DNA of 32,000 bases from an uncultured Alphaproteobacteria bacterium (GTDB lineage Bacteria > Pseudomonadota > Alphaproteobacteria > Rhizobiales > Xanthobacteraceae): NCBI GenBank assembly GCA_963753875.1, contig CAVWDY010000018.1:495057-527056 (forward strand). Reading direction: 5' to 3'. This document shows positions 7,518 to 26,088 of this stretch, in pieces (position 1 is the stretch's first letter; each line of letters opens with the position of its first letter). The position numbers and the translations under genes were made by a program. The notes under the pieces were generated by a model. It saw nothing but the letters and a program-made list of their open reading frames with translations. It did no database searches and was not told the DNA's origin.

Positions 7518-7526
7518 TCACTTCTC

Positions 7527-8399: not shown

Positions 8400-8422
8400 A
8401 GTGCAGCTCCGATTTTTGATCG

Positions 8423-9547: not shown

Positions 9548-9967
9548 CTGCTCATATACTGCGGCGAGGCGGGGTAAGATAACTGGACCGCTTGGAACCG
9601 GACCAGGCCGAGACTACCTGATGCGACCGATTGATCTTCGCACCCCTTGCTGACGGGTTGACCATCTACCCTACGGTCCGGGAATTTCGGTGCAGGTTGA
9701 ATGCGGGGATAAATGGCAGCCGAGCGTTAGAATGTGGAAAACGTAGGCGCCAACAGCCCTCCGACTGGCTAAAGGGTGACAGCGCCGTCCGATCGCCCGC
9801 CCGTCCACGCTTGCACAGCTCGATACAGGCCCAAGGTCAGTTTGTGCGGCTGCCGGGGCATGACAATACCCGTCGAGCATGTAAGAACGAAATTAGGAGG
9901 ACTATTGGCGCAAGCTGGAAGTGAGCCGTAAGCTGTTGTTATTAAGTCAGAAAATGCGTGGAAAAGA

Positions 9968-10780
9968 ATGCAAGCCAACATAGCGAACAAGAGGGAACAG
10001 CTGCGCTCTCCGGACCCGTATTCATCCAAAATCATCAAAGCCGGTGCCTTAATCGGGGACACGAAGACGCTGCTTGCCCACTGGGACATTCGCACCTCGG
10101 TCGACGAAAACCTCGATCGGGCAAGGCGGGATAATGTCTTCGGGAAGGCGTCCCGCTCGCGCGTCGAGGACATCTCAGCGATATTCCGGCAGCGCTACCT
10201 TACCGAGCATTCAGTCACCAAAGCACTTGTCACGCTGGTTCAAAAGAGGTTTCCTGCCGCCGGCTTGGAATGGCTATTTTACTTCCACTCCGCTCGTGCA
10301 GACCGATTGCTATATGATGCCGTGACCGAGATTCTTGTTCCCTTGCACGCGCGAGGTCTAGTCGACATCAACGTGCATGCTTTCCAACGTTCCCTGGCGA
10401 AGTGGGTCAATGAAGGAAAGACGACCGGCCACTGGTCCGAACCCACGATTACCCGGATTGCGCAAGGATTGCTTTCGACTCTACGGGACTTCGGCGTGCT
10501 CCAAGGGGCGGTTAATAAAAGGATTGCACCCGCGTACCTTCCCACCGAGGCATTCGCCTACGTCATGTTTTATTTGAAGCAGCGCCAACCGTCAGGAGTA
10601 AAACTGATCGAGCTTCCCGACTGGAAGTTGTTCTTTTTGTCGCGGGACGGCGTGGAGCGGCTTTTGTTCGAAGCCCACCAGCGGGGCTTGTTGGAATACC
10701 ACGTCGCTGGCAGCGTCACTCGATTGACCTTTCCAGCTGAAACTCTTGACGAGTATGCGAATGTCCTCGCTCAAAGATAG
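9968..10780 (+). CDS. brxA: BREX protein BrxA (DUF1819-like), 270 aa
   Basis: First position in a canonical type 1 BREX gene order. Overlaps the brxB start. The call rests mainly on synteny. Confidence 0.65.
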   Translation: MQANIANKREQLRSPDPYSSKIIKAGALIGDTKTLLAHWDIRTSVDENLDRARRDNVFGKASRSRVEDISAIFRQRYLTEHSVTKALVTLVQKRFPAAGLEWLFYFHSARADRLLYDAVTEILVPLHARGLVDINVHAFQRSLAKWVNEGKTTGHWSEPTITRIAQGLLSTLRDFGVLQGAVNKRIAPAYLPTEAFAYVMFYLKQRQPSGVKLIELPDWKLFFLSRDGVERLLFEAHQRGLLEYHVAGSVTRLTFPAETLDEYANVLAQR

Positions 10781-11360
10781 TATCGCACCTCTGGAAAGCG
10801 ATCTAAAGGCCATACCGCCGAGAATCAGCGTTTACCATGATCTGCCTTTTGCGATCATGCGGTACGACCCGACCGACGAATGGGAGCTTCGACGAGAGAT
10901 TAAATTGCTGGCTACTCGCCTAGAAGCCGTCGGCAAGAAGGTTCACATCATCCCGATGTCAGAACTGCTTTGGTCGGCGATGGAGAAGGTCCACGAAAAA
11001 GACGATGACGAAGGATTAGAGGCCGTCATCAAACTGGAAAAGGAACGCGGCTACGTCGAAGCTCAGCAGCAAATGACCACGTACTTGTCGAGCAAAGTCT
11101 GGATTCAGCTGTGGGATTTGCTCGCGGAACGCCTCGTTTCAATTAGCCCTGAGAATACGGTAGTCTTTCTGATCCGTGCGGCTGCGATGTCGCCAGGTAT
11201 TTTCCACATGTCCATGCTGCTCGACAAAATGAATGGCAAAACCAATGTGACAACGATTTTGTTTTACCCAGGAACGATCGAAGGCACGACCGGACTGCGA
11301 TTCATGGATCTAAAAGATCGTGATGCGCTGGGCAACTATCGGGTCAAGATTTACGGCTGA
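10746..11360 (+). CDS. brxB: BREX protein BrxB (DUF1788-like), about 200 aa
   Basis: Position between brxA and brxC. 'ISVYHDLPFAIMRYDPTDEWELRREI' is typical of the BrxB N-terminus as I recall it. Start ambiguous (10746, 10755 or 10761). Confidence 0.7.
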   Translation: MTSMRMSSLKDSIAPLESDLKAIPPRISVYHDLPFAIMRYDPTDEWELRREIKLLATRLEAVGKKVHIIPMSELLWSAMEKVHEKDDDEGLEAVIKLEKERGYVEAQQQMTTYLSSKVWIQLWDLLAERLVSISPENTVVFLIRAAAMSPGIFHMSMLLDKMNGKTNVTTILFYPGTIEGTTGLRFMDLKDRDALGNYRVKIYG

Positions 11361-11376
11361 GGAAACGAGTAACCAA

Positions 11377-14300
11377 ATGACGACAATCGGCGATCTGCTG
11401 ACACGTGATCTTAGCCGCAAGATCGAAGAGATCATCCAAGTCGATCAGGCCGATGAGCATTCGGTTCATTCTGAGATATCGGAATACGTTGCTACCGATA
11501 GTATCCGCGAACAGTACTATGGTCTCCTCAAAGCCATTGCTGAGGCTCCCAGCGATCCTAATGAAAGCGTCGGCGTCTGGGTGTCGGGCTTCTTCGGGTC
11601 TGGCAAAAGCTCATTTGCCAAGAACCTCGGCTACGCACTGGAGAACCGCACGGTTCTCGGCAGCAGATTTGCTGATCTCTTCAAGCAGCAACTTGGCGAT
11701 AACCGCACAAGCGATTTACTCGACCTCATTAATGCCAAGACGCCAACTCAGGTTATCCTTTTTGAGGTCGCGAAGGAGGCCGACACACGGAAGGTCACGC
11801 AACGAATTGCCGAGTTGATGTACACTGTTCTTCTGCGTGAGCTTGGTTACTCGGAAGACTTCGACATTGCTGAACTGGAAATAGAACTTGAAGCCGAGGG
11901 CAAACTGCCGGAGTTTGTTGCAACTTGCAAAACGCTGCTGAACAGAGACTGGGAAGCAGTCCGGTCCGGGGCGCAAAAATTGTCGCGCGCGAGTGCCATT
12001 CTAAATCAGCTTGATAGGAAGCTCTATCCTTCTGCGGATTCGTGGTCCCATTCTCAGCGTAATCGAGACGCGTCGATTTCCGTCAGCAAAGTAGTTAAGC
12101 GCACGTTCGAGCTATGGGGACGTCGCCGAAAGGGTAAAGCCCTTGTATTCATCATTGACGAAGTCGGCCAGCACGTCGCTCGCAGCGGCGACAAGATTGA
12201 AGACCTACGGGCGACCATCGAAGAATTCGGCAAGGTCAGTAAAAACTTGCTCAAGGAAGGCAAGATTACCGCTCCTTGCTGGATCGTTGTCACATCCCAG
12301 GAAAAGCTGGATGAAGTGGTCGCCGCGATAGATTCCAAGAGAGTCGAACTTGCTAAGTTGCAAGATCGCTTCCACCATCGCGTCGACTTGGCTCCCTCGG
12401 ACATCAGGGAGGTAGCCACCAAACGAGTCTTAGCGAAGACGGCCCAGGCTGTGATAACGCTCAAGAATCTCTTTTCTAAAAACCAAGGCGTGTTGAACGC
12501 CGCGCTGCGACTCGAACGTACGACCCGCCGCACCGACATCAGCGAAAGTGATTTCGTTCACTTTTATCCCTATCCGCCACACTACATCGATCTTTGCATT
12601 GGGATCATGTCGGGCATTCGACTGCAGCCAGGGGCTCCACGGCACTACGGAGGCAGCAACCGTACGATCATCAAGCAGGCGTACGAGATGCTGGTGTCGG
12701 ATCGTACTGCATTCGCCAAAATGCCCGTTGGAGCGCTTGTGACGCTCGACAAGGTGTTTGAGTTGGTAGAAGGAAACCTCTCTAACGAGAAGCGCACGGA
12801 CATTCACCAAATTGCCGAGCGATTCAAAAGCGATCCCGAAGATCGCGGGTGGGCGTTGCGGGTTGCCAAGGCCACCTGCCTTCTGGAATTCATTCGTGAT
12901 CTGCCCCGCACAGACGCCAATCTCGCCGCTGTGCTGGTCGACGAGGTGGGCAAGGCAACCCCGCTGAGTGAAGTTCAAGCTGCTGTAAAGCGGTTGAATA
13001 CTGCCCAGTTCATTCGCAATACTGAAGAGGGCTGGAAGCTCCAGACAGCGCAGGAGAAGAACTGGGAGACGGAACGGCGGGGATATCTCGAACCGAAGCC
13101 TCGTGAGCGCAATGAGCTTTCACGCACCGCTCTCCAGCAAATCTTTGATGAGCCGGAATTCAAGACCTTCCGCTACCAGAATCGCTCGTTCCGGATCGGC
13201 ATAAGCGTTGATGGATCAAACATTGGCGATGAAGGCGAACTCCTTCTGACCCTGTGCGTGGCTGAGGATACCGACGAACTTACCAAACGCATCGAAGAGA
13301 CGCGCACCGAGAGTCAGCAGAAATCTCACGAGAATGATCTTTACTGGCTCTTTTGCATGACGCCTGAGATCGATGAATTGGTTGGCCAGCTTCACGCCTC
13401 ACGCAAGATGGTGGACAAATACAACCAGCTCAGCGCCCAGCAAAAAATCAGTCCCGACGAAGCAACGTGCCTCCAGGACGAGAAAAACTCCAAGAACAGC
13501 TACGAAATCCGGTTGCGGGACAAGCTGACCGAGGCGATGGAGCGTGGCACCGGTATGTTCCGCGGCGTACAGAAAGACGCGTCCGCCTTAGGCAAAGGGT
13601 TAGGAGAAATCCTGAAGAAGCTCTTTGGTCAGGTCGTACCCGACTTGTACCCAAAGTTGCAAATGGGATCTCGGCCGCTGAAGGGCGATGAAGCCGAACA
13701 AGTCCTCAAAGCGGCTGACCTCAAAGCATTGCCTAACGTCTTCTACGCGGGCGATCACGGGCTGGGGCTGGTCGTCAAGGATGGCCCCAAGACCATTGTC
13801 AACAAGAATGCCGATGTCGCCAAGGAAGTCCTCGATTACTTAAAGAGCGAGCACAGCTACGGCAACAAAGACAGTCGCATGGGCAAGGCACTCGAAAAGC
13901 GATTCGGCGGCACGCCCTATGGCTGGGAACGTGACATGCTGCGACTGATCCTTGCCACGTTATTCCGAGCGGGTGAAATCGAGGTCACCTACCAAGGTAA
14001 CCGCTTCCACAACTACCAAGACCCGGCCTGCCGTACGCCCTTCACCAGCAATCCCGCATTCCGGTCGTCTCTGTTTTCGCCCCGGCAATCAGTCGGCCTC
14101 AAGACGCTCACGCAGGCCGTTCAGCAGCTCGAAGAGCTAACGGGAGAAGACGTCGACGTCGAAGAAGGCGCCATCGCTACGGCGTTCAAGAAAGTCGCCG
14201 CGGAGGAACTTGAAAAACTCTATCCGCTAAAGGCTACCGCAGAGGCCCACCGGCTCCCGATCCTGTCCATGCTGTCCGAGTATCAGCAGACGCTGGCGGG

Positions 14301-15042
14301 AATTCAATCGTCCGCTTCCGACGACTGTGTGCGTATTCTCACTGAGAATGGCAAGGACTTCGGGGGAACCAGAGAAAAGGTACGGAGGCTCCGTGAATTG
14401 CTGAATGCTGAGGCCATTAGCGTTCTGCGGGAGGCCCGACAAGCAACGGATCAAGTGTGGCAACGGCTTGCCGCTCACAATCCCTCGCCGGAACTCGAAA
14501 CGACGGTCGAGAAATTGAGAAACAACTTGGCCTCTGAATCGTTCATCAACTCGTGGGACGAGATCGCCGGCAGCACCAAGACGGTTCTGGAAGCCTACCG
14601 CATCGCCTACTGCGAATTGTTTGATCGTCGTAAGAAGTCCTACGAGTCGGCGATTGGTGAGATCAAAAATCGCCCCGAATGGGGGCCGCTGGAGGCTAAC
14701 AACTCTAGTATGGCCGCGATGCTCTTGTCGCCGCTACAAGGTCGGGTTGGCACAGACGAAGATAAGGAATCGGTAAAAGTTGGCACATCGCTAGGGAGGT
14801 CCAGCCTCACCGAGATGGAATCAGACCTTGCCGCCGTCGATGGACTGAAATCGTCAATTTTGGTCAAGTTGCAAGAACTGTCGATCGGTGGCGAGAAAAA
14901 GTCGCCGATCCGAAAGGTGCGAATCTCGGAATTCTTCAATCGTCCGATCCAGACGCAACCAGAACTCGACAAAGCTCTCGATCTCATAAGGGATTCACTT
15001 CAGAAGTACATCGATGAAGGCGCAATCATCATTCTGGAGTGA
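11377..15042 (+). CDS. brxC: BREX ATPase BrxC/PglY, 1221 aa from ATG 11377 (the ORF track begins at 11320)
   Basis: P-loop 'GFFGSGKSSFAKNLGYAL'. Size about 1200 aa. Synteny. ATG 11377 follows the brxB stop (11358-11360), with GAGGAA upstream. Confidence 0.9.
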   Translation: MTTIGDLLTRDLSRKIEEIIQVDQADEHSVHSEISEYVATDSIREQYYGLLKAIAEAPSDPNESVGVWVSGFFGSGKSSFAKNLGYALENRTVLGSRFADLFKQQLGDNRTSDLLDLINAKTPTQVILFEVAKEADTRKVTQRIAELMYTVLLRELGYSEDFDIAELEIELEAEGKLPEFVATCKTLLNRDWEAVRSGAQKLSRASAILNQLDRKLYPSADSWSHSQRNRDASISVSKVVKRTFELWGRRRKGKALVFIIDEVGQHVARSGDKIEDLRATIEEFGKVSKNLLKEGKITAPCWIVVTSQEKLDEVVAAIDSKRVELAKLQDRFHHRVDLAPSDIREVATKRVLAKTAQAVITLKNLFSKNQGVLNAALRLERTTRRTDISESDFVHFYPYPPHYIDLCIGIMSGIRLQPGAPRHYGGSNRTIIKQAYEMLVSDRTAFAKMPVGALVTLDKVFELVEGNLSNEKRTDIHQIAERFKSDPEDRGWALRVAKATCLLEFIRDLPRTDANLAAVLVDEVGKATPLSEVQAAVKRLNTAQFIRNTEEGWKLQTAQEKNWETERRGYLEPKPRERNELSRTALQQIFDEPEFKTFRYQNRSFRIGISVDGSNIGDEGELLLTLCVAEDTDELTKRIEETRTESQQKSHENDLYWLFCMTPEIDELVGQLHASRKMVDKYNQLSAQQKISPDEATCLQDEKNSKNSYEIRLRDKLTEAMERGTGMFRGVQKDASALGKGLGEILKKLFGQVVPDLYPKLQMGSRPLKGDEAEQVLKAADLKALPNVFYAGDHGLGLVVKDGPKTIVNKNADVAKEVLDYLKSEHSYGNKDSRMGKALEKRFGGTPYGWERDMLRLILATLFRAGEIEVTYQGNRFHNYQDPACRTPFTSNPAFRSSLFSPRQSVGLKTLTQAVQQLEELTGEDVDVEEGAIATAFKKVAAEELEKLYPLKATAEAHRLPILSMLSEYQQTLAGIQSSASDDCVRILTENGKDFGGTREKVRRLRELLNAEAISVLREARQATDQVWQRLAAHNPSPELETTVEKLRNNLASESFINSWDEIAGSTKTVLEAYRIAYCELFDRRKKSYESAIGEIKNRPEWGPLEANNSSMAAMLLSPLQGRVGTDEDKESVKVGTSLGRSSLTEMESDLAAVDGLKSSILVKLQELSIGGEKKSPIRKVRISEFFNRPIQTQPELDKALDLIRDSLQKYIDEGAIIILE

Positions 15043-15045
15043 ACG

Positions 15046-15867
15046 ATGCTGAGTCCACGACAGATATTTGAAGACAACATTCGGCCAGCAGACCTGCTTC
15101 TAAAGGTCTTCCGGCTGTTGGAGCATGATTCACTCAATACCGAAGAAGCATTACTTCGTTCGCTTCGTGAACTTGTGAAAGCAGAGAAAGACGAAAGCCT
15201 GCTGGTCATTTCCAACGGCATCTTTCTGGGATTGATCCGGGAATTGGCCGAAGTGCCGCCGTCATCGATCAAACGCAGTGCCTTGTGCAATTTGCTGCGT
15301 CAGGCCGTTGTCACCGCCAGCACTGCTTTGGAGACGTACCTGCCCATCTTGCTGAGGGACAATCTGCCAGAAATTATTCGGCTCCGTGGACGAGATTTTG
15401 TTCCAAGGAACGATGAAGCGTTCAAGAATCAATTCAAGGAACTGAAATTTGACCTTGATGAAGCAGTCCGCATTTTGGTTGATCCCGATCCACTGTTCCT
15501 TGCCAACAAAATGATTAGTAGCCTGAACTTCAGCTACCTCAACGGCAGACGGGGCGTCCATGTCACAGGCGTGCTGCTCGGTCTGGACAATCCGTGGAGC
15601 CTCGTCGCTCAGCAACTGGGACGAGCAGAAGAAGAAATCAAAAAAACACTCGATATTACAGTGAAACGTCGCAACGATATCGTGCATCGGGCCGACCGTT
15701 CGCAGGATGATCCCGCCGGCGCCGCTCAAGAGATAGGCTTCCCGTGGGCAAAGCAGGCGGTCGAAACGATTCGGGTCGTTTGCCTTGCACTGGATGATCT
15801 TGTGGTGAGCCGGCTAAATGGATTGAAACAACTAGCGGCGGCGTCACAACCGCAAGGCGCGGCGTGA
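15046..15867 (+). CDS. Non-canonical BREX-embedded gene: putative HEPN-domain protein, 273 aa
   Basis: 'TVKRRNDIVHRADR' contains R-N-x3-H, the Rx4-6H HEPN signature. The sequence is Leu/Glu/Ala-rich. ATG lies 3 nt after the brxC TGA, with GGAG 6 nt upstream. Its TGA is followed after 1 nt by the pglX ATG. Confidence 0.55.
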   Translation: MLSPRQIFEDNIRPADLLLKVFRLLEHDSLNTEEALLRSLRELVKAEKDESLLVISNGIFLGLIRELAEVPPSSIKRSALCNLLRQAVVTASTALETYLPILLRDNLPEIIRLRGRDFVPRNDEAFKNQFKELKFDLDEAVRILVDPDPLFLANKMISSLNFSYLNGRRGVHVTGVLLGLDNPWSLVAQQLGRAEEEIKKTLDITVKRRNDIVHRADRSQDDPAGAAQEIGFPWAKQAVETIRVVCLALDDLVVSRLNGLKQLAAASQPQGAA

Positions 15868-15868
15868 C

Positions 15869-18800
15869 ATGGACACGGAGATTCGAAACAAGCTCCGCAA
15901 TGTCGTGACGCGGTGTCGCAAGCTGCTGGAAGACTCCATTTCACAGGAGCTTGAGGGGAAGTACGGTATCTTCGTCAAGAATGATCAGGTGATCGCAAAT
16001 CCGAACGCCTCGATGGCCCATCTAAAAGAAGAGGAGCAGTCGGCTCGTAAGGATATCCTCGATCACTTCGGCCACATCATAGCCCGTGGTTTCAAGCCGA
16101 ATGAAGCTCTAGACCAGTTGGTGCGTGAAATTGCTTTTACACATCTAAACCGGCTCTGCGCCTACAAGATGATGGAGGCCCGCGAGGTCTATGTGGGCGG
16201 TCAAAAGTTCCGTGAGGCTGTAAGTCGCGGTATTAACTCCAATGGCGTAAAATTCTATCTGGCGGACAACCCCGAAGAAGAGCGCCTATTCAATACAGGT
16301 CATCAAGATACTGCATACCGGCATTTTCTGGATTGGCTAGGCGGGGCGCTCTCCGACGAAATCGGCGTCCTGTTCAATCCCAACGACCCGGCCAATCGGC
16401 TCTATCCTCGGCAACAGACGCTCGATGAAGTGCTGGACCTGTTGAACGGCGGTGGCATCAAAGTCGACGAGATCGAGTTACGGGAGCAATGGCCGAAGAT
16501 TTGGTCACAAGACGAAACCATCGGCTGGGTCTACCAGTATTTCACGCCCAAGGAACTACGAGATAAAGCCCGCAAGGCAAGCCCAGCCCCTCGAAACTCG
16601 TACGAATTGGCCTTCCGCAATCAGTTCTTTACGCCGCGCTACGTGGTCGAGTTCCTTACGGACAATACACTGGGTCGCATCTGGTTTGAGATGCGCAAAG
16701 GTGACACAAAGCTCAAGGACCAGTGTCGCTACTTAGTCTGTCACCCCAGCGAGTATTTCCTAAGGGAAGGAGAGCAGCGGCCCATTGACGCTGTCGAGGG
16801 GCCCGCCGACCTTCCGCAGGAAAAATTGTTCGAACGCCCGGTTAACATTCCGCACCGCCCGAAGAAAGATCCAAGGGAGCTGAAGATTCTCGACCCGGCA
16901 TGTGGGAGCGGTCACTTCTTGCTGTACTGCTTTGACTTACTGCTGACGATTTATGAGGAAGCATATTACGACCCCGACCTCGGCCCGGCGTTCCAGATCA
17001 AGCCCGTCGAAGAGTTTCGGCGCGATATTCCGGGCCTGATCCTCGCCCATAACTTGCACGGTATCGACATAGACGTGCGGGCTAGTCAAATTGCCGCCCT
17101 TGCGCTCTGGCTCCGCTGCCAACGGGCCTATCAAGACATGGGGCTGAAGAAAGATCGTCCCAAGATCACCCGTTCGAACTTTGTTTGTGCCGAACCAATG
17201 CCTGGTGAAGAACAAATACTTCAGGAGTTTGTCTCACAACTTGAACCGAAGGTTCTTGGCCAAGTGGTCGAAGTTGTCTTCGACAAGATGAAGTTAGCTG
17301 GGGAGATTGGCACGCTCCTCAAGATTGAAGAGGAGATTCGAGTTGCAGTCTCAGAAGCCAAAGAACAATGGGTCCGAGAAACGACCCTTGCCACGGATCG
17401 CAAGGGCCAGCAGCTCTTGTTCACACAAGCGGCAATGGATCGGTTGGATGGCAAGCCTACGCAACCCTCGCTCTTCGATTTGTCTGATGTCACCGACGAT
17501 CAGTTTTTCGAGCGAGCCGAAGTAAAGGTAATTGAGGCTCTTCGTTTCTACGCAGAGAAGGCCCATAACGGACAGCAACTTCAGCGACGGCTTTTCACGG
17601 AAGATGCCGTGCGCGGATTTGGTTTCGTGGATTTGTGCCACAAGCGGTTCGATGTTGTGCTGATGAATCCACCGTTCGGCGAGCCGATAAAGTCCACGCA
17701 AGGGTACTTGGAAGCGAACTATCCGCACACGAAGCATGATCTTTTTGCTGCGTTTTGTGATCGAGCAATGGGACTTTTGAATGAATCGGGGATGATAGGA
17801 GAAATTTCAAGTAGGGTCGGCTTTTTCATCCGCTCATTTGAAGAATGGCGAAACGATTTGCTCAACTCATGGCAAATTACGCTAATGGCTGATCTTGGGT
17901 CGCATGTTCTCGACACAGCGGCGGTCGAGGTGGCATGCTACGTAATACAGCGACCTTCTGAGCGTGCGGCCGCTACGTACGTATTTCGGCTGCTAGTCGA
18001 AACGCAGAAGGCAGTTAGACTACTGCATGCGTGCCAGAACCTTGCGGATCGGAATTGCTTTATTCTCACGACAGACCGCTTTAAAATTCTACCGCTTCAT
18101 CCATTCGTTTATTGGGTCGAATCTGAAACACTACGAAAGTTCACTTCCCATCCGACGGTTGAACCATCAGCGGGAGTTGTCCGTCAGGGCTTGGGCACCG
18201 GTGACAATTTTCGCTTTGTTCGGGCCATCTGGGAGGTGCCAGTCCAATCGATCGCTGGTCACCAATGTGTCACTCCGAACGAGGTCCGAAATCAGCTCTC
18301 TGGGGCAAAGACATGGGCCGTTCACGTAAGGTCGGGAGCTTCGCAGCCCTGGTATTCTCCACTTACAGTCGTAATTGATTGGGAAAGACAAGGCGAACGA
18401 CTGAAAGACCATTGGCGATCAAAGGGTGAGTCGCCCTCTCGGTATATTCCCAGCGAAGACTTATATTTTCGTCCTGGAATTAGTTGGACACGAAGGGCAT
18501 TCCGCCTGATTCCGTACATTGTGCCAACAGGGTGCATCCCTTCTGCAAGTCGTTATATGGCTTTCCCTGAGGATGCGCACCGGATCAACCTCTTAGGTCT
18601 GAGCGCTTCGGCTGTAGCCACGTTATTTATGCGGTTCTACGGAGAAAAGTTCGAGCATCCTAATCATTTGGTCGATACTTTCAAAAAGCTACCCTTCGTT
18701 TCATTGGAAGCCAATACGCAGGCATCAATTCGTTCGACCGCCGAGAGCGAGGTGAGTAAGCGAAAGCGGTATTATGCAAACTACGAGCCGTATTCTGATT

Positions 18801-20008
18801 TTGTGCTTCCTGCTTCTATTACGAAGTTCAGCAATGCTGGGGACTCGGAATGGGATTCAAGAACCTTCCTAGGAGAATCGGGCGAGGCGGCAATAGCGTC
18901 CGCAATCGGATTAAACCAGGCCGCATTAGAGCGAGCAATGCGAGACCTGGACGAGGCGATTGACGCTCGTCGGCAGACAGCGTCGGGCGGTGATGGCGTA
19001 GACGATGTGGATGGCGACGAAGATACCGGTGACACCGCTTGCGACTCAACGCCAAGAGGCCACGCGGTTGACACAGTATCCTACGCAGTAGGATGCGTGT
19101 TTGGGCGATGGGACATTCGCATGGCAAATGATCCGTCACTTGTCCCGGTCCCAGGTGATCCGTTCCTGCCGATTCAGCCTTCTCCCCCGGGTATGCTTGT
19201 TGGTCCAAACGGACTTCCTGCGGATAATGGATATGTGGCGGGTCGCGAATGGCTTCGTGCTAGACACCACATTGGCGACAAGTCGCCGACTTTGCTCGAT
19301 TCTGATGCCCTGGAGTCGGCATACCCCCTACGTGTCAATTGGGATGGCATCGTTGTCGACGACGAAGGGCACGCCGATGATATTGTTCGGCGCATTCAGG
19401 AAGCGTTCGAGATCATCTGGCCAGATAGTGCCAACTCGGCAGAGGCGGAGATATGTTTCAAGCTTGGGGCAAAAGGTGGCCTTCGAGAATTTTTGCGGAG
19501 ATCGGGAAAGGGTGGATTCTGGACAGAACACGTTTTCCGCTATTCCAAGAGCCGTCGTAAAGCGCCGATCTACTGGATGCTCCAGTCATCGAAGAAAAAC
19601 TACGCCGTTTGGCTGTATTACCACCGCATAGATAAAGATCTCCTTTTCAAGGTGCTAGTGAAACACGTAGAACCAAAGATTCGGTTGGAGACGAGTCACC
19701 TCGAAACTCTGCGTGACCAAGGATCCCAATCTGGGGAGTCAGGAAAGGAAGCGAAGGGACTTGCAAAGAAGATTGAACGGCAGGAAGAGTTTCTTTCTGA
19801 ATTGAAGGACTTCGAGGATAAGCTGCGTCGTGCGGCGGATCTACATCTCGAACCCGATCTCAACGATGGAGTTGTCCTCAACATTGCTCCACTTTGGGAA
19901 CTTGTCCCGTGGAAAGAGGCTAAAAACTACTGGGATGAACTCCTCAAGGGTGAATACGAGTGGTCCTCTATCGGCAAGCAACTTCGTCAAAGGCAATTGG
20001 TGAAGTAA
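15869..20008 (+). CDS. pglX: BREX N6-adenine DNA methyltransferase PglX, 1379 aa
   Basis: SAM-binding motif I 'ILDPACGSGHFLLY'. Catalytic motif IV 'VLMNPPFGEP'. Size and synteny. Confidence 0.92.
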   Translation: MDTEIRNKLRNVVTRCRKLLEDSISQELEGKYGIFVKNDQVIANPNASMAHLKEEEQSARKDILDHFGHIIARGFKPNEALDQLVREIAFTHLNRLCAYKMMEAREVYVGGQKFREAVSRGINSNGVKFYLADNPEEERLFNTGHQDTAYRHFLDWLGGALSDEIGVLFNPNDPANRLYPRQQTLDEVLDLLNGGGIKVDEIELREQWPKIWSQDETIGWVYQYFTPKELRDKARKASPAPRNSYELAFRNQFFTPRYVVEFLTDNTLGRIWFEMRKGDTKLKDQCRYLVCHPSEYFLREGEQRPIDAVEGPADLPQEKLFERPVNIPHRPKKDPRELKILDPACGSGHFLLYCFDLLLTIYEEAYYDPDLGPAFQIKPVEEFRRDIPGLILAHNLHGIDIDVRASQIAALALWLRCQRAYQDMGLKKDRPKITRSNFVCAEPMPGEEQILQEFVSQLEPKVLGQVVEVVFDKMKLAGEIGTLLKIEEEIRVAVSEAKEQWVRETTLATDRKGQQLLFTQAAMDRLDGKPTQPSLFDLSDVTDDQFFERAEVKVIEALRFYAEKAHNGQQLQRRLFTEDAVRGFGFVDLCHKRFDVVLMNPPFGEPIKSTQGYLEANYPHTKHDLFAAFCDRAMGLLNESGMIGEISSRVGFFIRSFEEWRNDLLNSWQITLMADLGSHVLDTAAVEVACYVIQRPSERAAATYVFRLLVETQKAVRLLHACQNLADRNCFILTTDRFKILPLHPFVYWVESETLRKFTSHPTVEPSAGVVRQGLGTGDNFRFVRAIWEVPVQSIAGHQCVTPNEVRNQLSGAKTWAVHVRSGASQPWYSPLTVVIDWERQGERLKDHWRSKGESPSRYIPSEDLYFRPGISWTRRAFRLIPYIVPTGCIPSASRYMAFPEDAHRINLLGLSASAVATLFMRFYGEKFEHPNHLVDTFKKLPFVSLEANTQASIRSTAESEVSKRKRYYANYEPYSDFVLPASITKFSNAGDSEWDSRTFLGESGEAAIASAIGLNQAALERAMRDLDEAIDARRQTASGGDGVDDVDGDEDTGDTACDSTPRGHAVDTVSYAVGCVFGRWDIRMANDPSLVPVPGDPFLPIQPSPPGMLVGPNGLPADNGYVAGREWLRARHHIGDKSPTLLDSDALESAYPLRVNWDGIVVDDEGHADDIVRRIQEAFEIIWPDSANSAEAEICFKLGAKGGLREFLRRSGKGGFWTEHVFRYSKSRRKAPIYWMLQSSKKNYAVWLYYHRIDKDLLFKVLVKHVEPKIRLETSHLETLRDQGSQSGESGKEAKGLAKKIERQEEFLSELKDFEDKLRRAADLHLEPDLNDGVVLNIAPLWELVPWKEAKNYWDELLKGEYEWSSIGKQLRQRQLVK

Positions 20009-22599
20009 TGGCGATCGTCACCGCATCTCTCGTTCAAATGATCGCCAAACAAGTCGATGAGAAAGGGCTGGTGGTTTGGTACGACCCGGAGCGAGCATAC
20101 CTTACGGTGGCTGCGGAACTGCTTCTGCCGAGTACAACCGTGGCCCGATACAACGGAAGCTTCCTCAAGCTGCGAAAAGAAATCGACCATTTGCTCAACG
20201 ACATTCAACCGCCTCGACTAGTCGTATATGTGCCGATGGAACGAACCCAAACCGACAGTGCGTTAATCGAACTCGATTGTGCCGGGGTCATCATGCAGCC
20301 TCGGCAGCAACCGCCAGCTTGCAATACCCGGTTGTCGGTTGTGGGCCGCAATGCTCTCAAGCACATTTTGAGTGACGATCAAGTTTCCGAAATCGAACGG
20401 CAGGTGGAATCAGGCAAGTTATCGCTTGCCGATCTGAATTCACTGGCCGAGCAGGGAATCGATATCTCGACCGGCGTGTTGAAACTCATCTTCGGCTCGG
20501 CTAACCCGCAGGAAGTTGCGTTGGCATTGCTGCACGGCGAGCGGCACGATGAAGAGATCGGTAAGAAGGAGGCCCAGAAAGAACTGCGGCACCTTCTCCA
20601 AGTTAGCTTTGATATTGAACTCTCTGCATCAGAAAGCCTCTCCAAGTGGCGAGCTCAATTGGGCCGGCACGTTCTACTGACCGATTTGTTCGCAGCTCTT
20701 AAAAAGCAGGTGCCATCCTCGCTTGCGGCAGTCCCGGTAGCCAAGAGCACTGGCGGGATCGATGCTTGCGTGCGGTTGGCTCGAACCTGGCGTAACAGCC
20801 GGGACGTGCGAAACAGCTACGTTATCCTGGCCAATAAGGTCGAACAGGACCTTTCCCTCGGTCAATTGGACATTCCCGTGGAGGCGCTGAGGGAAAACGA
20901 AACTTTCCTCTGCGTCGAGCGTGCGTTGCTGGCACATGTAGAGCGTGAGCTACTGAGGTCCGCGACCACCGAATTGCTGCAACTGGCCGAATATCGTCTC
21001 TCCCGCTTTTGGGCCGATGTCATTCCGGCGACACAGGCTCAGTGGGCGCTGATCTCCTCCGCCGCCGAGGTCTTGATTGTTGCCGACCGTGTGAGCAAGG
21101 CACTCAAGAAGGCTCCCAGCATGGTGCCCGCTCTTGTTAAAGCATATGCCGACGACGATGAGCCGTGGTGCTTGCTCGACACCCATCACCGGCACATGGA
21201 AAGCCGTAAATACAATTTTGAGTTCGCAGCCAATATCGATCACGGCGCGTTGGAAAAGCTCATCACCAGGGCCGAGCAACGCTATACCGAGGTCGGATCC
21301 GAACTCGCGAAGCATTTCATTATACAGTTTCAAAAGGCCAAGCATCCGATCAATGGATTACTAAGACAGCGAGATATTTTTGAGAAGCAGGTGAAGCCGC
21401 ATTTGAGCGAAGGCAAGGTTGCCTACGTTTGGGTGGATGCACTGCGATTCGAGATGGCGCGTGAACTGTGCTTATTGCTCAAGGACAATTTCAAACTCGA
21501 AATTCAGCCCGCCATCGGCACGATGCCTACGATCACCGAAATTGGCATGGCGGCGTTGTTACCTAGAGCTCATGCGTCGGCCAAGGTTGTGGCCGTCGGA
21601 GGCGGCAAATTAGCGTTGGAGATCGACGGCAAGACGATCAGGGATCGGAAAGACCGGGTGGCGTTTCTCAAAGAAAATGCGGGCGTGTCGGTCTTTGATG
21701 CCAAGCTGGACGATCTGCTGCCTAAGCCAACCAAAAAGGTGAAGGACGGAATTCAGAACAACCAGTTGATCTTGATTACTTCGCAGGAGATAGATGAACT
21801 GGGTGAGGCCGACAACATGGCCCAATCCCGGCTCCAAATCGACGGCGTGCTGAGCCATTTGCGACGTGGCGTGCGTGTTTTGGCCGATCATGGGATAGAT
21901 ACGATCGTCCTCGTTGCCGATCACGGGCACTTGTTCGCTGACGAGATCGGGGAGGACATGAAGATCGAGACCCCCGGTGGCAAGGTAGAAGATTTGCATC
22001 GGCGGGTATGGGTGGGCATTGGCGGAACCTCGGAGCCATCGTACCTTCGGGCGTCACTGTCCTCGTTGGGCGTGGACAGTGAACTAGACATTGCCACGCC
22101 TTGGACGTTTGCCGTCTTCAAATCAAAGGGGGGCGGCCGAGCTTATTTCCATGGTGGGCTATCCCCTCAGGAACTGATTGTGCCCGTGGTCGTGATGCAT
22201 CCGACAACGAAGCCGTTGGCTCCCAAGACCAGCATACAATGGACATTGAACCCCGGGACGCCCAAACTAACGACCAGGTTCTTTTCCGTTCAGATTGCCG
22301 GTATCGAGAACGAGTCAAGCCTATTTGGGTTTGAGCCGCCCAAGGTGCGGATCGAACTTCGGGCCAACAAAAAGTGCGTTTCGTTGTCGGTAAGTGCCTC
22401 CTACGGTTTCGAGGATGCAACCGGCGAAGTAAAGCTGAAGGTTTCTGATACTGACAACAAGCGAATCGAGCCCAACACGGTCACAGTGATGTTGTCCGAG
22501 GAGATTTCCCAGAAAACAGTGGGAGTCTATCTGCTCGATGCCACAACGGGAGCAGAACTGGCGCCTCCCTTGACGGTTGATGTCGCCATTTCGATGTGA
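20008..22599 (+). CDS. pglZ: BREX alkaline-phosphatase-superfamily protein PglZ, 863 aa from ATG 20008
   Basis: 'VWVDALRFEMAREL' and 'LVADHGH' are PglZ-type metal-site blocks. The start overlaps the pglX stop as TAATG (20006-20010). Confidence 0.9.
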   Translation: MAIVTASLVQMIAKQVDEKGLVVWYDPERAYLTVAAELLLPSTTVARYNGSFLKLRKEIDHLLNDIQPPRLVVYVPMERTQTDSALIELDCAGVIMQPRQQPPACNTRLSVVGRNALKHILSDDQVSEIERQVESGKLSLADLNSLAEQGIDISTGVLKLIFGSANPQEVALALLHGERHDEEIGKKEAQKELRHLLQVSFDIELSASESLSKWRAQLGRHVLLTDLFAALKKQVPSSLAAVPVAKSTGGIDACVRLARTWRNSRDVRNSYVILANKVEQDLSLGQLDIPVEALRENETFLCVERALLAHVERELLRSATTELLQLAEYRLSRFWADVIPATQAQWALISSAAEVLIVADRVSKALKKAPSMVPALVKAYADDDEPWCLLDTHHRHMESRKYNFEFAANIDHGALEKLITRAEQRYTEVGSELAKHFIIQFQKAKHPINGLLRQRDIFEKQVKPHLSEGKVAYVWVDALRFEMARELCLLLKDNFKLEIQPAIGTMPTITEIGMAALLPRAHASAKVVAVGGGKLALEIDGKTIRDRKDRVAFLKENAGVSVFDAKLDDLLPKPTKKVKDGIQNNQLILITSQEIDELGEADNMAQSRLQIDGVLSHLRRGVRVLADHGIDTIVLVADHGHLFADEIGEDMKIETPGGKVEDLHRRVWVGIGGTSEPSYLRASLSSLGVDSELDIATPWTFAVFKSKGGGRAYFHGGLSPQELIVPVVVMHPTTKPLAPKTSIQWTLNPGTPKLTTRFFSVQIAGIENESSLFGFEPPKVRIELRANKKCVSLSVSASYGFEDATGEVKLKVSDTDNKRIEPNTVTVMLSEEISQKTVGVYLLDATTGAELAPPLTVDVAISM

Positions 22600-22609
22600 G
22601 GAGTCAAGC

Positions 22610-24637
22610 TTGACTGAGCTAGATCGAAAAGCGGCATCCGTATTTGCGGGCAAGGTCGTTCGCAAGGATTTGGTCCGCAAGGTGAAGGTGGGGGCAAACG
22701 TCCCAGTCTTCGTGCTTGAATACCTGCTGGGGAAATATTGTGCCACCGACGATCCGGCGGCCATCGATGCTGGGCTGAGAGTGGTAAACAACACCCTGTC
22801 CTCGAATTTTGTGCGCTCTGACGAGGCCAACAAAGCCCAGTCGATGGTGAAGGACAAAGGGAAGCATACGCTCATCGACAAAGTGCAGGTGCGGTACGTT
22901 TCCGAGGAGGACAAGTACTGGGCTGAGCTGAAAAATTTTGGCCACAAGTTCGTACACGTTCCTGAACATTTCTTGAGGGACTACGATCGTCTGCTTATGG
23001 GTGGGATTTGGGCGCAACTAGATATTCGGCATCAGTACGATGAGGAGCAAAAGGGGAAGAAAAGTCCATTCTGGATCGACAGTATCAAACCGATTCAACT
23101 TGCAACGTTCGACCTCGAAGAATATCGGGCCTGCCGCGCCCAATTCACAACGGACGAATGGATCGACTTGCTGCTTCGCACGATCGGACTTGAACCATCA
23201 CACTTCAATCGCCGTCAGAAGCTGCATTACTTGGCACGGCTGATACCGCTGGCCGAGGCTAATTATAATCTCGTCGAACTCGGCCCGCGTGAAACGGGGA
23301 AAAGTTACGGCTATCAGGAACTATCGCCGTACACTATTCTGCTCACGGGACCCACGACTGTCGCCAATCTGTTTTTCAACATGGCCACTGGAAAGATGGG
23401 ACTTGTCGGGATCTGGGACGCCATTGGCTTCGATGAGGTTGCGGACCTCCAAAAAATGCCAAAGGAAGTCGTGACGACCCTCAAGACCTACTGCGAGTCA
23501 GGTACCTTCGCGCGCGGGAAGGATTCATTATCTGGCATGGCTTCCATTGCCATGTTCGGAAACACCAATCAGCCCGTCGAAGCGATGGTGCGGTCGTCGC
23601 ACCTATTCATGCCACTGCCGGAGGTGATCCGAGAGGACATGGCGTTCCTCGACCGCATCCATTTTTACATCCCCGGTTGGGAAATGCCGAAGATGAAGGT
23701 GGAGTTCTTCACTAATCACTACGGCTTCGTGGTCGACTATCTGGCGGAGGCTCTGCGAGACCTACGTAAGCACACCTTCACCGAAGTACTCGACCGGCAC
23801 TTTGCGCTGGGGTCTCACCTAAAATCACGTGACGTCAAAGCCGTGAGAAAGACAGTTTCGGGGTTGGTCAAACTGATCTATCCGAACGGTGAGCTTTCAA
23901 AGGAGGAATTGGCCGAACTAGTAGAGTTGTCCCTCGAAGGACGTCGGCGGGTGAAAGAGCAACTGAAGAAAATGGGATCATTCGAGTTCCATCAAACGTC
24001 GTTTTCGGTGATCGATAACGAAACACGAGAAGAGAAATTTGTCGGCGTGCCCGAACAGGGTGGGCGGGACATGATCTCGCTCGACCCCTTGGCCCCAGGA
24101 TCGTTATACACGTCTTCTGTGGACGATCACGGCAAGGTCGGACTCTATCGGCTCGAAGTCGGCTGTTCGCCTGGTACTGGCAAGCTTAAGATCGCGGGTG
24201 GGGTCGAGGGACAAATGCGGGAGTCCATCAACCGAGCCTTTGCCTATTTGATGGGTCAGAAGGTCAAGATGGGTATTGCCCAACAGGTTGATACAACCGA
24301 CTTTCACGTTGAGGCCATCGACTTACTTAGCAATCACGTCCCTTGCGAGGCTGGAATTGCGCTGGTAGTAGCGATTTACTCGGCACTGAAGAGGGTTCCA
24401 GTTCAAGCCGGCTTTGTCATCCTCGGCGATCTCAGCATCCAGGGAAACATCAAGTCGATTCGGTCCTTAGCCGAGCCATTGCAGGTTGCTATGGACAACG
24501 GCGCGCGCAAGGCGCTGATCCCGCTCGAAAACAAGCGGAATTTCCTCGAAGTCTCCGGCGATATCGTGGAACGGGTTGATCCTGTATTCTTTTCAGATCC
24601 GATGATGGCGGCGATGAAGGCTTTGGGGATGACCTGA
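22610..24637 (+). CDS. brxL: BREX Lon-like protease/ATPase BrxL, about 675 aa from TTG 22610 (the ORF track begins at 22577)
   Basis: 'LDRKAASVFAGKVVRKDL' N-terminus. Walker A 'GPRETGKSYG'. Lon-like C-terminus 'ILGDLSIQGNIKSIRSL'. GAGGAG (22598-22603) lies 6 nt upstream of the TTG. Confidence 0.88.
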   Translation: MTELDRKAASVFAGKVVRKDLVRKVKVGANVPVFVLEYLLGKYCATDDPAAIDAGLRVVNNTLSSNFVRSDEANKAQSMVKDKGKHTLIDKVQVRYVSEEDKYWAELKNFGHKFVHVPEHFLRDYDRLLMGGIWAQLDIRHQYDEEQKGKKSPFWIDSIKPIQLATFDLEEYRACRAQFTTDEWIDLLLRTIGLEPSHFNRRQKLHYLARLIPLAEANYNLVELGPRETGKSYGYQELSPYTILLTGPTTVANLFFNMATGKMGLVGIWDAIGFDEVADLQKMPKEVVTTLKTYCESGTFARGKDSLSGMASIAMFGNTNQPVEAMVRSSHLFMPLPEVIREDMAFLDRIHFYIPGWEMPKMKVEFFTNHYGFVVDYLAEALRDLRKHTFTEVLDRHFALGSHLKSRDVKAVRKTVSGLVKLIYPNGELSKEELAELVELSLEGRRRVKEQLKKMGSFEFHQTSFSVIDNETREEKFVGVPEQGGRDMISLDPLAPGSLYTSSVDDHGKVGLYRLEVGCSPGTGKLKIAGGVEGQMRESINRAFAYLMGQKVKMGIAQQVDTTDFHVEAIDLLSNHVPCEAGIALVVAIYSALKRVPVQAGFVILGDLSIQGNIKSIRSLAEPLQVAMDNGARKALIPLENKRNFLEVSGDIVERVDPVFFSDPMMAAMKALGMT

Positions 24638-25991: not shown

Positions 25992-26088
25992 CTCGGGCGA
26001 CTAGTATATTGATGAACTACTCGTTTCTTCAGGGGTGAACGACGATCATCAATCGGAACTGCTGCCGCATCATCGTGTCGCTATCGTC

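What the first reader, a model, noticed from the sequence alone, without database searches (positions are those of the whole stretch)
15046..15867. HEPN-motif gene embedded between brxC and pglX: possible guard RNase inside BREX
A 273-aa ORF lies where canonical type 1 BREX has none. Its ATG comes 3 nt after the brxC stop, and its stop sits 1 nt before the pglX ATG, so it is co-transcribed and probably co-translated with the core genes. Near its C-terminus is 'KRRNDIVHR', which matches R-N-x-x-x-H, the Rx4-6H catalytic signature of HEPN ribonucleases such as AbiD/F, the PrrC/RloC nuclease domains and the MAE_28990-like families linked to restriction-modification systems. The placement parallels prrC, a latent HEPN anticodon nuclease embedded in the EcoprrI type I R-M locus. 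PrrC fires when phage inhibits the R-M enzyme. My inference is that this protein is held inactive by BREX proteins and acts as an abortive-infection backstop against anti-BREX factors such as Ocr-like DNA mimics or SAM depletion.
Basis: partly seen in the sequence, partly recalled or inferred. Interest (0 to 1): 0.75.

Follow-up and report, generated by a model that had tools for sequence, protein, structure and literature searches.

The report
HEPN RNase accessory gene inside BREX
A small gene for a predicted RNA-cutting enzyme (HEPN family) really does sit between two core genes of a BREX phage-defence operon, but it is an optional add-on that related bacteria have repeatedly deleted or swapped, and this kind of add-on has already been described in general terms.

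Summary
A 273-aa ORF (15046-15867, +) lies between brxC and pglX of a complete type 1 BREX operon. It starts 3 nt after the brxC stop and ends 1 nt before the pglX ATG.

It is a HEPN-superfamily protein. It matches Pfam PF18735, as do all 39 aligned relatives. R209, H214 and an acidic residue at 96 are invariant down to 22% identity, and N210 is kept in 36 of 39. A confident AlphaFold model places the motif where HEPN domains carry it. dN/dS is 0.03-0.08.

The gene occupies the same slot in about 45 BREX loci from at least eight phyla. It is not a core subunit. Of 80 metagenomic loci with closely related BrxC, 50 keep it and 10 carry deletion scars of it. Six hold other cargo in the slot, such as a PIN toxin pair or a PD-(D/E)XK nuclease.

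A remote relative sits in an Hma/DUF499 system, and others are solo genes.

The most likely role is an accessory second-line, abortive-infection RNase co-expressed with BREX. The PrrC-like guard mechanism is plausible but untested. HEPN genes in Pgl/BREX operons were already proposed as suicide or backup effectors in 2013 and 2026. I rate this a new member of a known kind, of moderate interest.

The parts
15046..15867 (+). HEPN-domain gene (273 aa), the extra gene in the brxC|pglX slot
   Evidence: ORF and translation. PF18735 HEPN_RiboL-PSP, E=1.5e-6, 28.7 bits against a threshold of 28.4. All 39 aligned relatives hit PF18735, best E=8.6e-16. AlphaFold pLDDT 92.2, pTM 0.88. dN/dS 0.03-0.08.
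15667..15696 (+). Catalytic motif R208-R209-N210-D-I-V-H214-R-A-D217 (Rx4H with a polar residue after R)
   Evidence: R208, R209, H214 and D217 are invariant in 39/39 sequences down to 22% identity, and N210 is kept in 36/39. The motif lies at the C-terminal end of model helix 195-215, followed by a loop and then helix 232-267. [quoted passage not shown]
15292..15333 (+). Upstream conserved helix segment: L83-L84-R85-Q86 and the acidic residue E96
   Evidence: L84 and R85 are invariant. Position 96 is E (22) or D (17) in 39/39. This matches the second conserved acidic residue described for HEPN helix 2.
15036..15048 (+). brxC-HEPN junction: GGAG inside the last brxC codons, TGA stop, 3-nt spacer, ATG (in frame with brxC)
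   Evidence: Sequence. The gap is exactly 3 nt in 31 of 41 measurable loci (Synechococcus and GTDB species genomes) and in 41 of 46 scorable metagenome loci. The spacer sequence itself varies.
15865..15871 (+). HEPN-pglX junction: TGA, 1 nt, ATG
   Evidence: Sequence. 'TGA N ATG' is the dominant form across loci. It is kept even in loci where most of the HEPN gene has been deleted.
9968..10780 (+). brxA
   Evidence: PF08849, E=2.4e-27.
10746..11360 (+). brxB (start codon uncertain)
   Evidence: PF08747, E=7e-10.
11320..15042 (+). brxC (start codon uncertain)
   Evidence: PADLOC BrxC, E=2.2e-216. Pfam BrxC wHTH domain.
15869..20008 (+). pglX (BREX adenine methyltransferase)
   Evidence: PADLOC PglX, E=0. 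Pfam Eco57I and MmeI_Mtase. Residues 701-1000 are hypervariable between loci, at 16-42% identity.
19960..22599 (+). pglZ (start codon uncertain)
   Evidence: PF08665, E=6.1e-20.
22577..24637 (+). brxL (start codon uncertain)
   Evidence: BrxL_ATPase, E=8e-131, plus BrxL_N and Lon_C.

Best explanation
The gene encodes a single-domain HEPN ribonuclease. It is an ancient but optional accessory of one lineage of type 1 BREX systems. It is transcribed with the BREX operon and translated by coupling to brxC upstream and pglX downstream.

Its most likely job is a second-line toxic effector. Once activated during infection it would cut host and/or phage RNA, probably as a homodimer that pairs two Rx4H motifs, as other HEPN RNases do. 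That would stop phage production when the methylation-based BREX mechanism is insufficient or blocked.

Shown here: the HEPN identity, an intact active-site constellation, strong purifying selection, the conserved slot and junctions, and dispensability.

Inferred: RNase activity, dimerisation, abortive or backup function, and any control by BrxC or PglX.
For: HEPN identity:
- PF18735 scores above the gathering threshold in the window protein and in 39/39 relatives.
- R85, R208, R209, H214, D217 and an acidic residue at 96 are invariant to 22% identity.
- The AlphaFold model (pLDDT 92) places the motif at the end of a long helix, before the loop to the last helix, with helical inserts upstream. 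This matches the published HEPN description.

Selection: dN/dS is 0.03-0.08 with dS from 0.7 to above 2.

Linkage to BREX:
- The gene directly follows brxC in every GTDB-species locus with upstream sequence, across Acidobacteriota, Planctomycetota, Chloroflexota, Pseudomonadota, Bacillota, Binatota and Cyanobacteriota.
- The same holds in a second subfamily only about 24% identical, from Desulfobacterota and others.
- The 3-nt and 1-nt junctions are conserved, and no + strand promoter or terminator signal lies nearby.

Accessory status: among 80 loci with BrxC C-termini 55-90% identical, 50 keep the gene and 10 carry deletion remnants of it. Six carry other cargo: PIN plus a Phd-like antitoxin, PDDEXK_3, an AAA ATPase, 23S_rRNA_IVP and an unknown protein.

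Precedent: HEPN genes in Pgl/BREX operons have been proposed as suicide or backup effectors (PMC3710099; PMC12839542). The embedded HEPN protein HEC-08 gives phage defence that is lost on mutating the motif histidine (bioRxiv 10.1101/2024.01.29.577857). The solo HEPN protein ApeA defends by tRNA anticodon cleavage.
Against: - No biochemical or genetic data exist for this family.
- The window protein clears the Pfam threshold by only 0.3 bits.
- No antitoxin-like partner or sensor domain is visible, so how a toxic RNase would be kept silent is unexplained.
- Repeated loss shows it is not needed to maintain BREX. That is compatible with a costly backup effector, but also with a mere passenger.
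Confidence: 0.6

Rival explanations
1. PrrC-like guard. BrxC or PglX binds the RNase and keeps it silent. It is released when a phage anti-BREX factor, such as an Ocr-type DNA mimic or SAM depletion, disables BREX. Infection is then aborted, and the BREX cassette becomes addictive.
For: - The gene has no sensor domain of its own, so a trans-acting regulator is needed.
- The brxC-HEPN junction is never interrupted in more than 90 loci, whereas cargo is found between HEPN and pglX (L015, L021, L023) or between pglX and pglZ.
- Conserved translational coupling would favour co-assembly.
- A member of the family also sits directly upstream of the methyltransferase of an Hma/DUF499 BREX-related system.
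- The idea matches published proposals.
Against: - There is no direct evidence of interaction.
- A covariation test between HEPN and segments of BrxC and PglX was uninformative.
- In L026, L027, L029 and L036 the HEPN allele is only about 55% identical while BrxC, PglZ and BrxL stay at 77-88%. A tightly co-adapted interface is therefore not obvious.
- Remote relatives are solo genes.
- No HEPN-ATPase fusions were found in this family.
Confidence: 0.25
2. Self-contained abortive-infection gene that is merely nested in BREX. It senses infection by itself, as ApeA senses deoxydinucleotides, and gains only co-regulation and co-mobility from its position.
For: - Solo relatives occur outside any BREX, beside AbiEii and a transposase, or alone.
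- The slot also accepts unrelated cargo, as expected for a nesting hot spot.
- Embedded defence genes are generally autonomous.
- The long helical inserts at residues 124-191 and the N-terminal 75 residues could form a ligand pocket.
Against: - The gene has kept exactly the same slot, with the same junctions, from 95% down to 24% identity across many phyla. That is unlike typical mobile embedded systems.
- No BREX-independent copies were seen among close relatives.
Confidence: 0.25
3. Integral subunit of this BREX lineage, required for its exclusion mechanism, for example as the effector that destroys phage transcripts.
For: The position is fixed, purifying selection is very strong and the gene is co-inherited with the cassette.
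Against: - Ten related loci keep brxC and pglX intact around deletion scars of the gene, and six carry other genes instead.
- Canonical type 1 BREX works without such a gene (established knowledge).
Confidence: 0.07
4. The ORF matters mainly as a translated leader that couples pglX translation to brxC. The HEPN domain would be catalytically irrelevant.
For: Five scar loci retain a 30-codon in-frame mini-ORF (HEPN nt 1-51 joined to nt 779-822). It preserves both junctions despite sequence divergence.
Against: Catalytic residues are invariant, and dN/dS is 0.03-0.08 over all 273 codons. The family also exists outside BREX.
Confidence: 0.03

Closest known systems
Pfam PF18735 HEPN_RiboL-PSP (RiboL-PSP-HEPN family of the HEPN superfamily)
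   Same: The profile match covers residues 82-253 (profile positions 28-189 of 191). Every relative tested matches it. The protein has an Rx4H motif with N after R and an upstream acidic residue.
   Different: No RiboL-PSP (endoribonuclease L-PSP) domain is found in the protein or its neighbours. The window protein is only 0.3 bits above threshold. This BREX-linked clade is a compact subgroup: 239 clusters at 50% identity among 1.84 billion representatives.
HEPN genes in Pgl/BREX operons (Anantharaman et al. 2013, PMC3710099; 'backup suicidal effectors' in PMC12839542, 2026)
   Same: A HEPN gene embedded among brxC/pglY, pglX and pglZ genes in the same operon, interpreted as a suicide or backup RNase.
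   Different: [quoted passage not shown] Here the family is PF18735-like and keeps one slot over deep divergence. The 2026 catalogue of neighbourhoods (its Supplementary Data S4) is not held, so I could not check whether this exact family is listed.
PrrC (and RloC) anticodon nucleases embedded in type I R-M loci
   Same: A HEPN-type RNase nested in a restriction-modification-like operon. The guard logic is a plausible analogy.
   Different: PrrC and RloC carry an N-terminal ABC-type NTPase regulatory domain. This protein is a single 273-aa HEPN domain. Masking by the host system is unproven here.
[quoted passage not shown]
   Same: Same orientation, flanked by system genes, with a nuclease effector. 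HEC-08 is a HEPN protein whose defence needs the motif histidine.
   Different: HEC-08 is a DUF3644-type HEPN with zinc-ribbon domains. The present protein has no hit in PADLOC-DB v2.0.0, which contains the PDC models. Close relatives were never seen outside BREX.
ApeA, a solo HEPN antiphage tRNA anticodon nuclease (bioRxiv 10.64898/2026.01.26.701840)
   Same: HEPN effector of abortive infection. The only PDB sequence hit of the family profile is the ApeA-type protein 9hxn_A, aligned over the motif region (...KVRNKITHRA).
   Different: That hit is not significant (E=1.4). ApeA is much larger, forms ring oligomers and has its own ligand pocket.

Membership tests
HEPN superfamily | Rx4-6H motif with a polar residue (N/D/H) right after R | tested here: met
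   R209-N210-D-I-V-H214. R209 and H214 are in 39/39 sequences and N210 in 36/39. Definition from PMC3710099.
HEPN superfamily | Second conserved acidic residue upstream (helix 2) | tested here: met
   Position 96 is E or D in 39/39 sequences, inside model helix 77-118.
HEPN superfamily | [quoted passage not shown] | tested here: inconclusive
HEPN superfamily | Metal-independent RNase activity | not testable with these tools
   Needs biochemistry.
Pfam PF18735 HEPN_RiboL-PSP | HMM score at or above the gathering threshold | tested here: met
   28.7 bits against 28.4 for the window protein. 39/39 relatives match at E<=0.01, best E=8.6e-16.
Pfam PF18735 HEPN_RiboL-PSP | Fusion or operon link to a RiboL-PSP domain (the origin of the name; my own knowledge of the name) | tested here: not met
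   No such domain is found in the protein or in neighbours of any locus examined.
PrrC/RloC-type anticodon nucleases | N-terminal ABC/NTPase regulatory domain fused to the nuclease domain | tested here: not met
   Single-domain 273-aa protein with PF18735 as the only hit and no P-loop domain.
PrrC/RloC-type anticodon nucleases | Embedded in a restriction-modification-type operon | tested here: met
   Lies between brxC and pglX in about 45 genome or long-contig loci and 50 metagenome loci.
PrrC/RloC-type anticodon nucleases | Kept latent by the host R-M proteins and unleashed by a phage anti-restriction factor | not testable with these tools
   Needs genetics and biochemistry.
HEPN-MNT type II toxin-antitoxin | Adjacent minimal nucleotidyltransferase antitoxin | tested here: not met
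   The neighbours are BrxC and PglX only. No nucleotidyltransferase domain is found in the operon.
AbiD/AbiF (Abi_2) HEPN Abi proteins | Match to the Abi_2 profile | tested here: not met
   No such hit at E<=0.01 for the protein or any of the 39 relatives. The only other families seen were weak Cthe2314, MAE_28990, Swt1 and Apea HEPN hits in 1-2 members each.
Type 1 BREX | brxA-brxB-brxC-pglX-pglZ-brxL in one orientation | tested here: met
   All six are present at 9968-24637 (+). The HEPN gene is a seventh gene.
Core (obligatory) BREX component | Present in all members of the lineage that carries it | tested here: not met
   10 loci with deletion scars and 6 with other cargo among 80 loci with closely related BrxC.

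The most novel reading that the evidence does not exclude
The HEPN protein is a dedicated guard of BREX. It is produced in fixed proportion with BrxC and PglX through translational coupling and held silent by binding BrxC, the gene it is never separated from. It is released as an RNase when a phage anti-BREX protein or loss of the cassette disturbs the complex. That would make it the BREX counterpart of PrrC-EcoprrI, and it would also act as an addiction module for the cassette. The conserved in-frame arrangement (brxC stop, one codon, ATG) would additionally allow a low level of BrxC-HEPN read-through fusion.
Probability: 0.22. Interest if true: 0.65.

Novelty: new member of a known kind. Interest (0 to 1): 0.4.

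Why it matters
How BREX stops phage is still unclear, and so is how it withstands anti-BREX proteins. This lineage offers a compact, natural seven-gene cassette in which a predicted RNase is hard-wired between the ATPase and the methyltransferase.

Nature has also supplied the controls. Related cassettes carry the gene, carry it cleanly deleted, or carry a PIN toxin pair or a PD-(D/E)XK nuclease in its place. That makes the 'second-line suicide effector' idea for BREX directly testable.

If the guard model held, it would extend the PrrC paradigm from type I R-M to BREX. If it did not, the finding is one more embedded accessory nuclease of a class already catalogued.

Tried and rejected
1. AlphaFold with a shallow alignment of 20 close homologues gave an unusable model (pLDDT 40.6). 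The 39-sequence diverse alignment fixed this.
3. Sequence-profile search of PDB chains gave no hit with A1. With A2 it gave only a non-significant motif-level hit to an ApeA-type protein.
4. NCBIfam and PADLOC have no model for the protein. PLSDB plasmids contain no homologue.
5. Covariation of HEPN divergence with segments of BrxA, BrxB, BrxC, PglX, PglZ and BrxL, meant to find a partner: all segments track phylogeny (Spearman 0.48-0.85, apart from the hypervariable PglX 701-1000 at -0.03) and only 13 loci passed filters. Uninformative.
6. Rosetta-stone test. BREX-related DUF499 ATPases often carry an N-terminal HEPN, so I looked for fusions. No long fusion proteins appeared among the 150 listed hits of the representative search or the top 120 hits of the remote-member profile. 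No support.
7. I first read the fixed slot as evidence for a core subunit of the lineage. I rejected this after the BrxC-anchored metagenome scan showed deletion scars and replacements.
8. Read-through fusion of BrxC to HEPN. The 3-nt spacer is in frame and mostly ACN, but other triplets occur (CCC, AGC, ATC, TCC), so there is no clear codon-level constraint. I keep this only as a remark.
9. Supplementary neighbourhood tables of the 2026 BREX survey that might list this family are not held.

Full report
**1. Observation**

The window carries a complete type 1 BREX operon on the + strand:
- brxA, 9968-10780
- brxB, 10746-11360
- brxC, 11320-15042
- pglX, 15869-20008
- pglZ, 19960-22599
- brxL, 22577-24637

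These assignments come from Pfam and PADLOC.

Between brxC and pglX lies a 273-codon ORF, 15046-15867. The brxC stop (TGA, 15040-15042) is followed by 3 nt and the ATG. A GGAG lies inside the last brxC codons, at 15036-15039. The ORF's TGA (15865-15867) is followed by a single base and the pglX ATG.

No promoter-like or terminator-like site lies on the + strand between 11193 and 17256. The peptide KRRNDIVHR occupies residues 207-215.

**2. It is a real, constrained gene**

The protein has 833 homologues at E<=1e-3 in the 5.8-billion-protein collection. The best 120 are all 79-95% identical, yet their source names span Acidobacteriota, Ca. Contendobacter and Synechococcus.

Against ten orthologues, dN/dS is 0.03-0.08 while dS runs from 0.7 to above 2. 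The high protein identity therefore reflects strong purifying selection, not just recent transfer.

The family is compact. Only 239 clusters at 50% identity reach E<=1e-3 among 1.84 billion representatives, and many of these are fragments.

**3. It is a HEPN domain**

Pfam PF18735 (HEPN_RiboL-PSP) is the only hit, at E=1.5e-6 and 28.7 bits against a gathering score of 28.4. All 39 members of a diverse alignment, down to 22% identity, hit the same model, with a best E of 8.6e-16. Isolated members also give weak hits to other HEPN families: Cthe2314, MAE_28990, Swt1 and Apea.

The columns invariant across that alignment are L84, R85, R208, R209, H214 and D217. N210 is kept in 36 of 39 sequences, and position 96 is E or D in all 39. 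This matches the published HEPN signature: Rx4-6H, a polar residue after R, and a second acidic residue upstream (PMC3710099).

A first AlphaFold run on a shallow alignment failed (pLDDT 40.6). The run with the diverse alignment gave pLDDT 92.2 and pTM 0.88. The model is essentially all-alpha, apart from a short β-hairpin at residues 52-65:
- a long helix, 77-118, carrying LLRQ and E96
- helical inserts at 124-191
- a helix, 195-215, that ends in the motif
- a loop
- a final helix, 232-267

The fold assignment is therefore strong at the level of sequence, motif and topology, but it is not confirmed by 3D comparison.

**4. Distribution: one slot, kept over deep divergence**

A scan of one genome per GTDB species returned 40 loci. 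In every one with upstream sequence, the gene directly follows brxC. In most it is directly followed by pglX, and the rest of the type 1 BREX set surrounds it.

The Synechococcus sp. PCC 6312 chromosome shows the same arrangement. The brxC-to-ATG gap is exactly 3 nt in 31 of the 41 measurable loci from these two sets (the count includes a second copy of the Synechococcus locus), and the stop-to-pglX gap is 1 nt in 25.

A second subfamily only about 24% identical to the window protein sits in the same slot. It includes Desulfatibacillum alkenivorans, Desulfonatronum zhilinae and other members.

Variable cargo in these loci lies elsewhere:
- Between pglX and pglZ: Fic, or an AAA_21 ATPase plus DUF4276.
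- Occasionally between HEPN and pglX: small Phd-like ORFs in L015, a 256-aa unknown protein in L021, and a NACHT-TPR NTPase in L023.
- Never between brxC and HEPN.

Two Chloroflexota-type loci (L024, L035) have a second pglX and nuclease genes upstream of brxC. They still keep the order brxC-HEPN-pglX.

Still more remote relatives (22-25% identity) break the pattern:
- One lies in an Hma/DUF499 'BREX-related' system, between the SNF2 helicase and the DUF1156 methyltransferase.
- Others are solo genes, next to AbiEii and a transposase, next to a TetR gene, or alone.

**5. It is nevertheless optional**

I anchored a metagenome scan on the BrxC C-terminus rather than on the HEPN protein. It returned 80 loci with BrxC C-termini mostly 55-90% identical to the window's. 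They sort as follows:
- 50 have the HEPN gene directly after brxC.
- 5 end too early to tell.
- 10 carry remnants of the gene.
- 6 hold different genes in the slot.
- 4 near-identical loci have a 463-nt gap with no recognisable content.
- The remaining 5 are unclear.

The remnants fall into three types:
- In L073, L074, L075, L099 and L134, HEPN nt 1-51 are joined in frame to nt 779-822. This gives a 30-codon mini-ORF (MLSPRQIFENNIRPADL|KQQTAASQPQGMA). In L075, L099 and L134 it still starts 3 nt after the brxC stop and ends 1 nt before the pglX ATG; in L073 and L074 about 330 further nt separate the scar from pglX.
- L091, L116 and L120 keep only the last 50-114 nt.
- L098 and L101 keep a few codons.

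The replacement genes are a Phd-like antitoxin plus a PIN toxin (L068), a PDDEXK_3 nuclease (L104, L105), a 23S_rRNA_IVP four-helix protein (L082), an AAA ATPase (L094) and an unknown 333-365-aa protein (L067).

Some of these loci are near-duplicates from related samples, so the counts are not independent events. At least three distinct deletion types exist.

The HEPN gene was therefore ancestral in this BREX lineage, is dispensable for keeping the cassette, and has been lost or replaced several times. That rules out an obligatory core subunit. It fits a costly accessory effector occupying a slot that also accepts other toxins and nucleases.

**6. Other evolutionary hints**

In four Planctomycetota loci (L026, L027, L029, L036) the HEPN protein is only about 55% identical to the window's, while BrxC, PglZ and BrxL remain 77-88% identical. 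The HEPN allele has thus diverged or been exchanged independently of its flanks.

An attempt to find its partner by covariation with segments of the BREX proteins was uninformative. I also looked for fusions of this family to BrxC-like ATPases, because many DUF499 ATPases carry an N-terminal HEPN. None turned up.

**7. Mechanism**

Shown here:
- an intact HEPN active-site constellation
- strong constraint on the whole protein
- operon membership
- junctions suited to translational coupling

From established knowledge of HEPN enzymes (RNase L, Ire1, Cas13, Csm6, PrrC, HEPN-MNT toxins, ApeA): these are metal-independent RNases that usually need two HEPN domains side by side. A single-domain protein like this one should therefore act as a dimer or higher oligomer.

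Inferred: the protein is a latent toxic RNase that acts as a second line of defence. The trigger is unknown. The first candidate is a guard arrangement. The lack of any sensor domain and the unbroken brxC-HEPN junction favour control by a BREX protein, most likely BrxC. The second candidate is autonomous sensing, favoured by the solo relatives. I rate the two about equally, at roughly 0.25 each, within an overall 0.6 for 'accessory second-line RNase effector'.

**8. Comparison with the literature**

- Anantharaman et al. [quoted passage not shown] They proposed cell suicide or limitation of burst size.
- Payne et al. [quoted passage not shown] They validated an embedded HEPN protein (HEC-08) and drew the PrrC analogy.
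- The 2026 BREX survey lists standalone HEPN domains among 'backup suicidal effectors' linked to BREX loci.

The concept is therefore published. This family has no PADLOC or NCBIfam model. I found no text describing its fixed brxC|pglX position, its deletion scars or its presence in Hma. The relevant supplementary table of the 2026 paper is not held, so prior listing cannot be excluded.

**9. Verdict**

The finding is a new, uncharacterised member of a known kind, namely nuclease accessories nested in BREX or R-M operons. Its anatomy is unusually clean and it comes with built-in natural controls, which makes it a good experimental entry point. It is not a conceptual surprise. Interest: 0.4.

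Noticed in passing
L073, L074, L075, L099, L134 (brxC|pglX gap); compare window 15046-15096 and 15824-15867: Five related loci carry the same in-frame deletion of the HEPN gene (nt 52-778 removed). It leaves a 30-codon mini-ORF. In L075, L099 and L134 the mini-ORF keeps the 3-nt spacing after the brxC stop and the 1-nt spacing before the pglX ATG, despite sequence divergence. This suggests pglX translation depends on coupling to an upstream translated ORF.
   Followed up: partly
window 15040-15048 and the same junction in about 80 loci: The HEPN ATG is in frame with brxC, separated only by a stop codon (mostly TGA) and one triplet (mostly ACN, but variable). Stop-codon read-through would give a BrxC-HEPN fusion. 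I found no evidence that this happens.
   Followed up: partly
window 17969-18868 (PglX residues 701-1000): This PglX segment is hypervariable between otherwise similar cassettes, at 16-42% identity against 55-85% elsewhere. It is probably the target-recognition region, so specificities differ between cassettes.
   Followed up: partly
L026, L027, L029, L036 (Planctomycetota): The HEPN protein is only about 55% identical to the window's, while the flanking BrxC, PglZ and BrxL are 77-88% identical. The HEPN allele has been exchanged, or has diverged much faster than the rest of the cassette.
   Followed up: no
L043 4800-5597, L044 4114-4911: A 22%-identical member of the same HEPN family lies between the SNF2 helicase and the DUF1156 methyltransferase of an Hma/DUF499 (BREX-related type 1) system. 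It starts 3 nt after the helicase stop and overlaps the methyltransferase start by 4 nt.
   Followed up: partly
L024 343-18966, L035 1102-15376: These BREX variants have two pglX genes. One full-length copy lies upstream of brxC and is followed by a NERD or NucS-like nuclease. A split copy lies after the HEPN gene, with a 200-aa ORF (L035) or a 186-aa ORF and a 1222-aa WD40 protein (L024) between the halves.
   Followed up: partly
window 122-3268 (- strand): Three genes in a row: a 198-aa ORF with no hits, a QatC-like QueC-family protein (PADLOC QatC, E=3.5e-32), and an HTH plus M78 peptidase regulator resembling RmrA/CapP. This may be a partial or variant Qat-type defence module with a protease-type regulator.
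   Followed up: partly
window 3426-5132 (+): A 363-aa ORF without Pfam hits is followed, 9 nt later, by a RES-domain toxin (E=1.7e-18). This is probably a RES-type toxin-antitoxin pair with an unusual long partner.
   Followed up: no
window 7527-9547 (- strand): A 374-aa protein with a C-terminal HNH nuclease motif is followed by a ParA/MinD-like ATPase (AAA_31), just upstream of the BREX operon. Function unknown, with no PADLOC hit.
   Followed up: no
window 24700-32000 and 6000-25000: The BREX cassette has lower G+C (0.52-0.545) than the flanks (0.575-0.60). It is followed by a DDE_3 transposase (25206-25991), an HTH protein (26458-27063) and a DUF772 transposase fragment (30346-30873). This is consistent with a horizontally acquired defence island. 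There are no tRNA genes in the window.
   Followed up: partly
L032, L034, L038 (MAGs labelled MFD...bin): The HEPN reading frame is interrupted by premature stops or frameshifts in these three assemblies. They could be assembly indel errors or genuine pseudogenes. I did not resolve this.
   Followed up: no
L083, L084, L087, L089 (brxC|pglX gap, 463 nt): Four near-identical loci have a 463-nt spacer between brxC and pglX. It has no similarity to the HEPN gene and no + strand ORF of 50 codons or more. Its content is unexplained.
   Followed up: no
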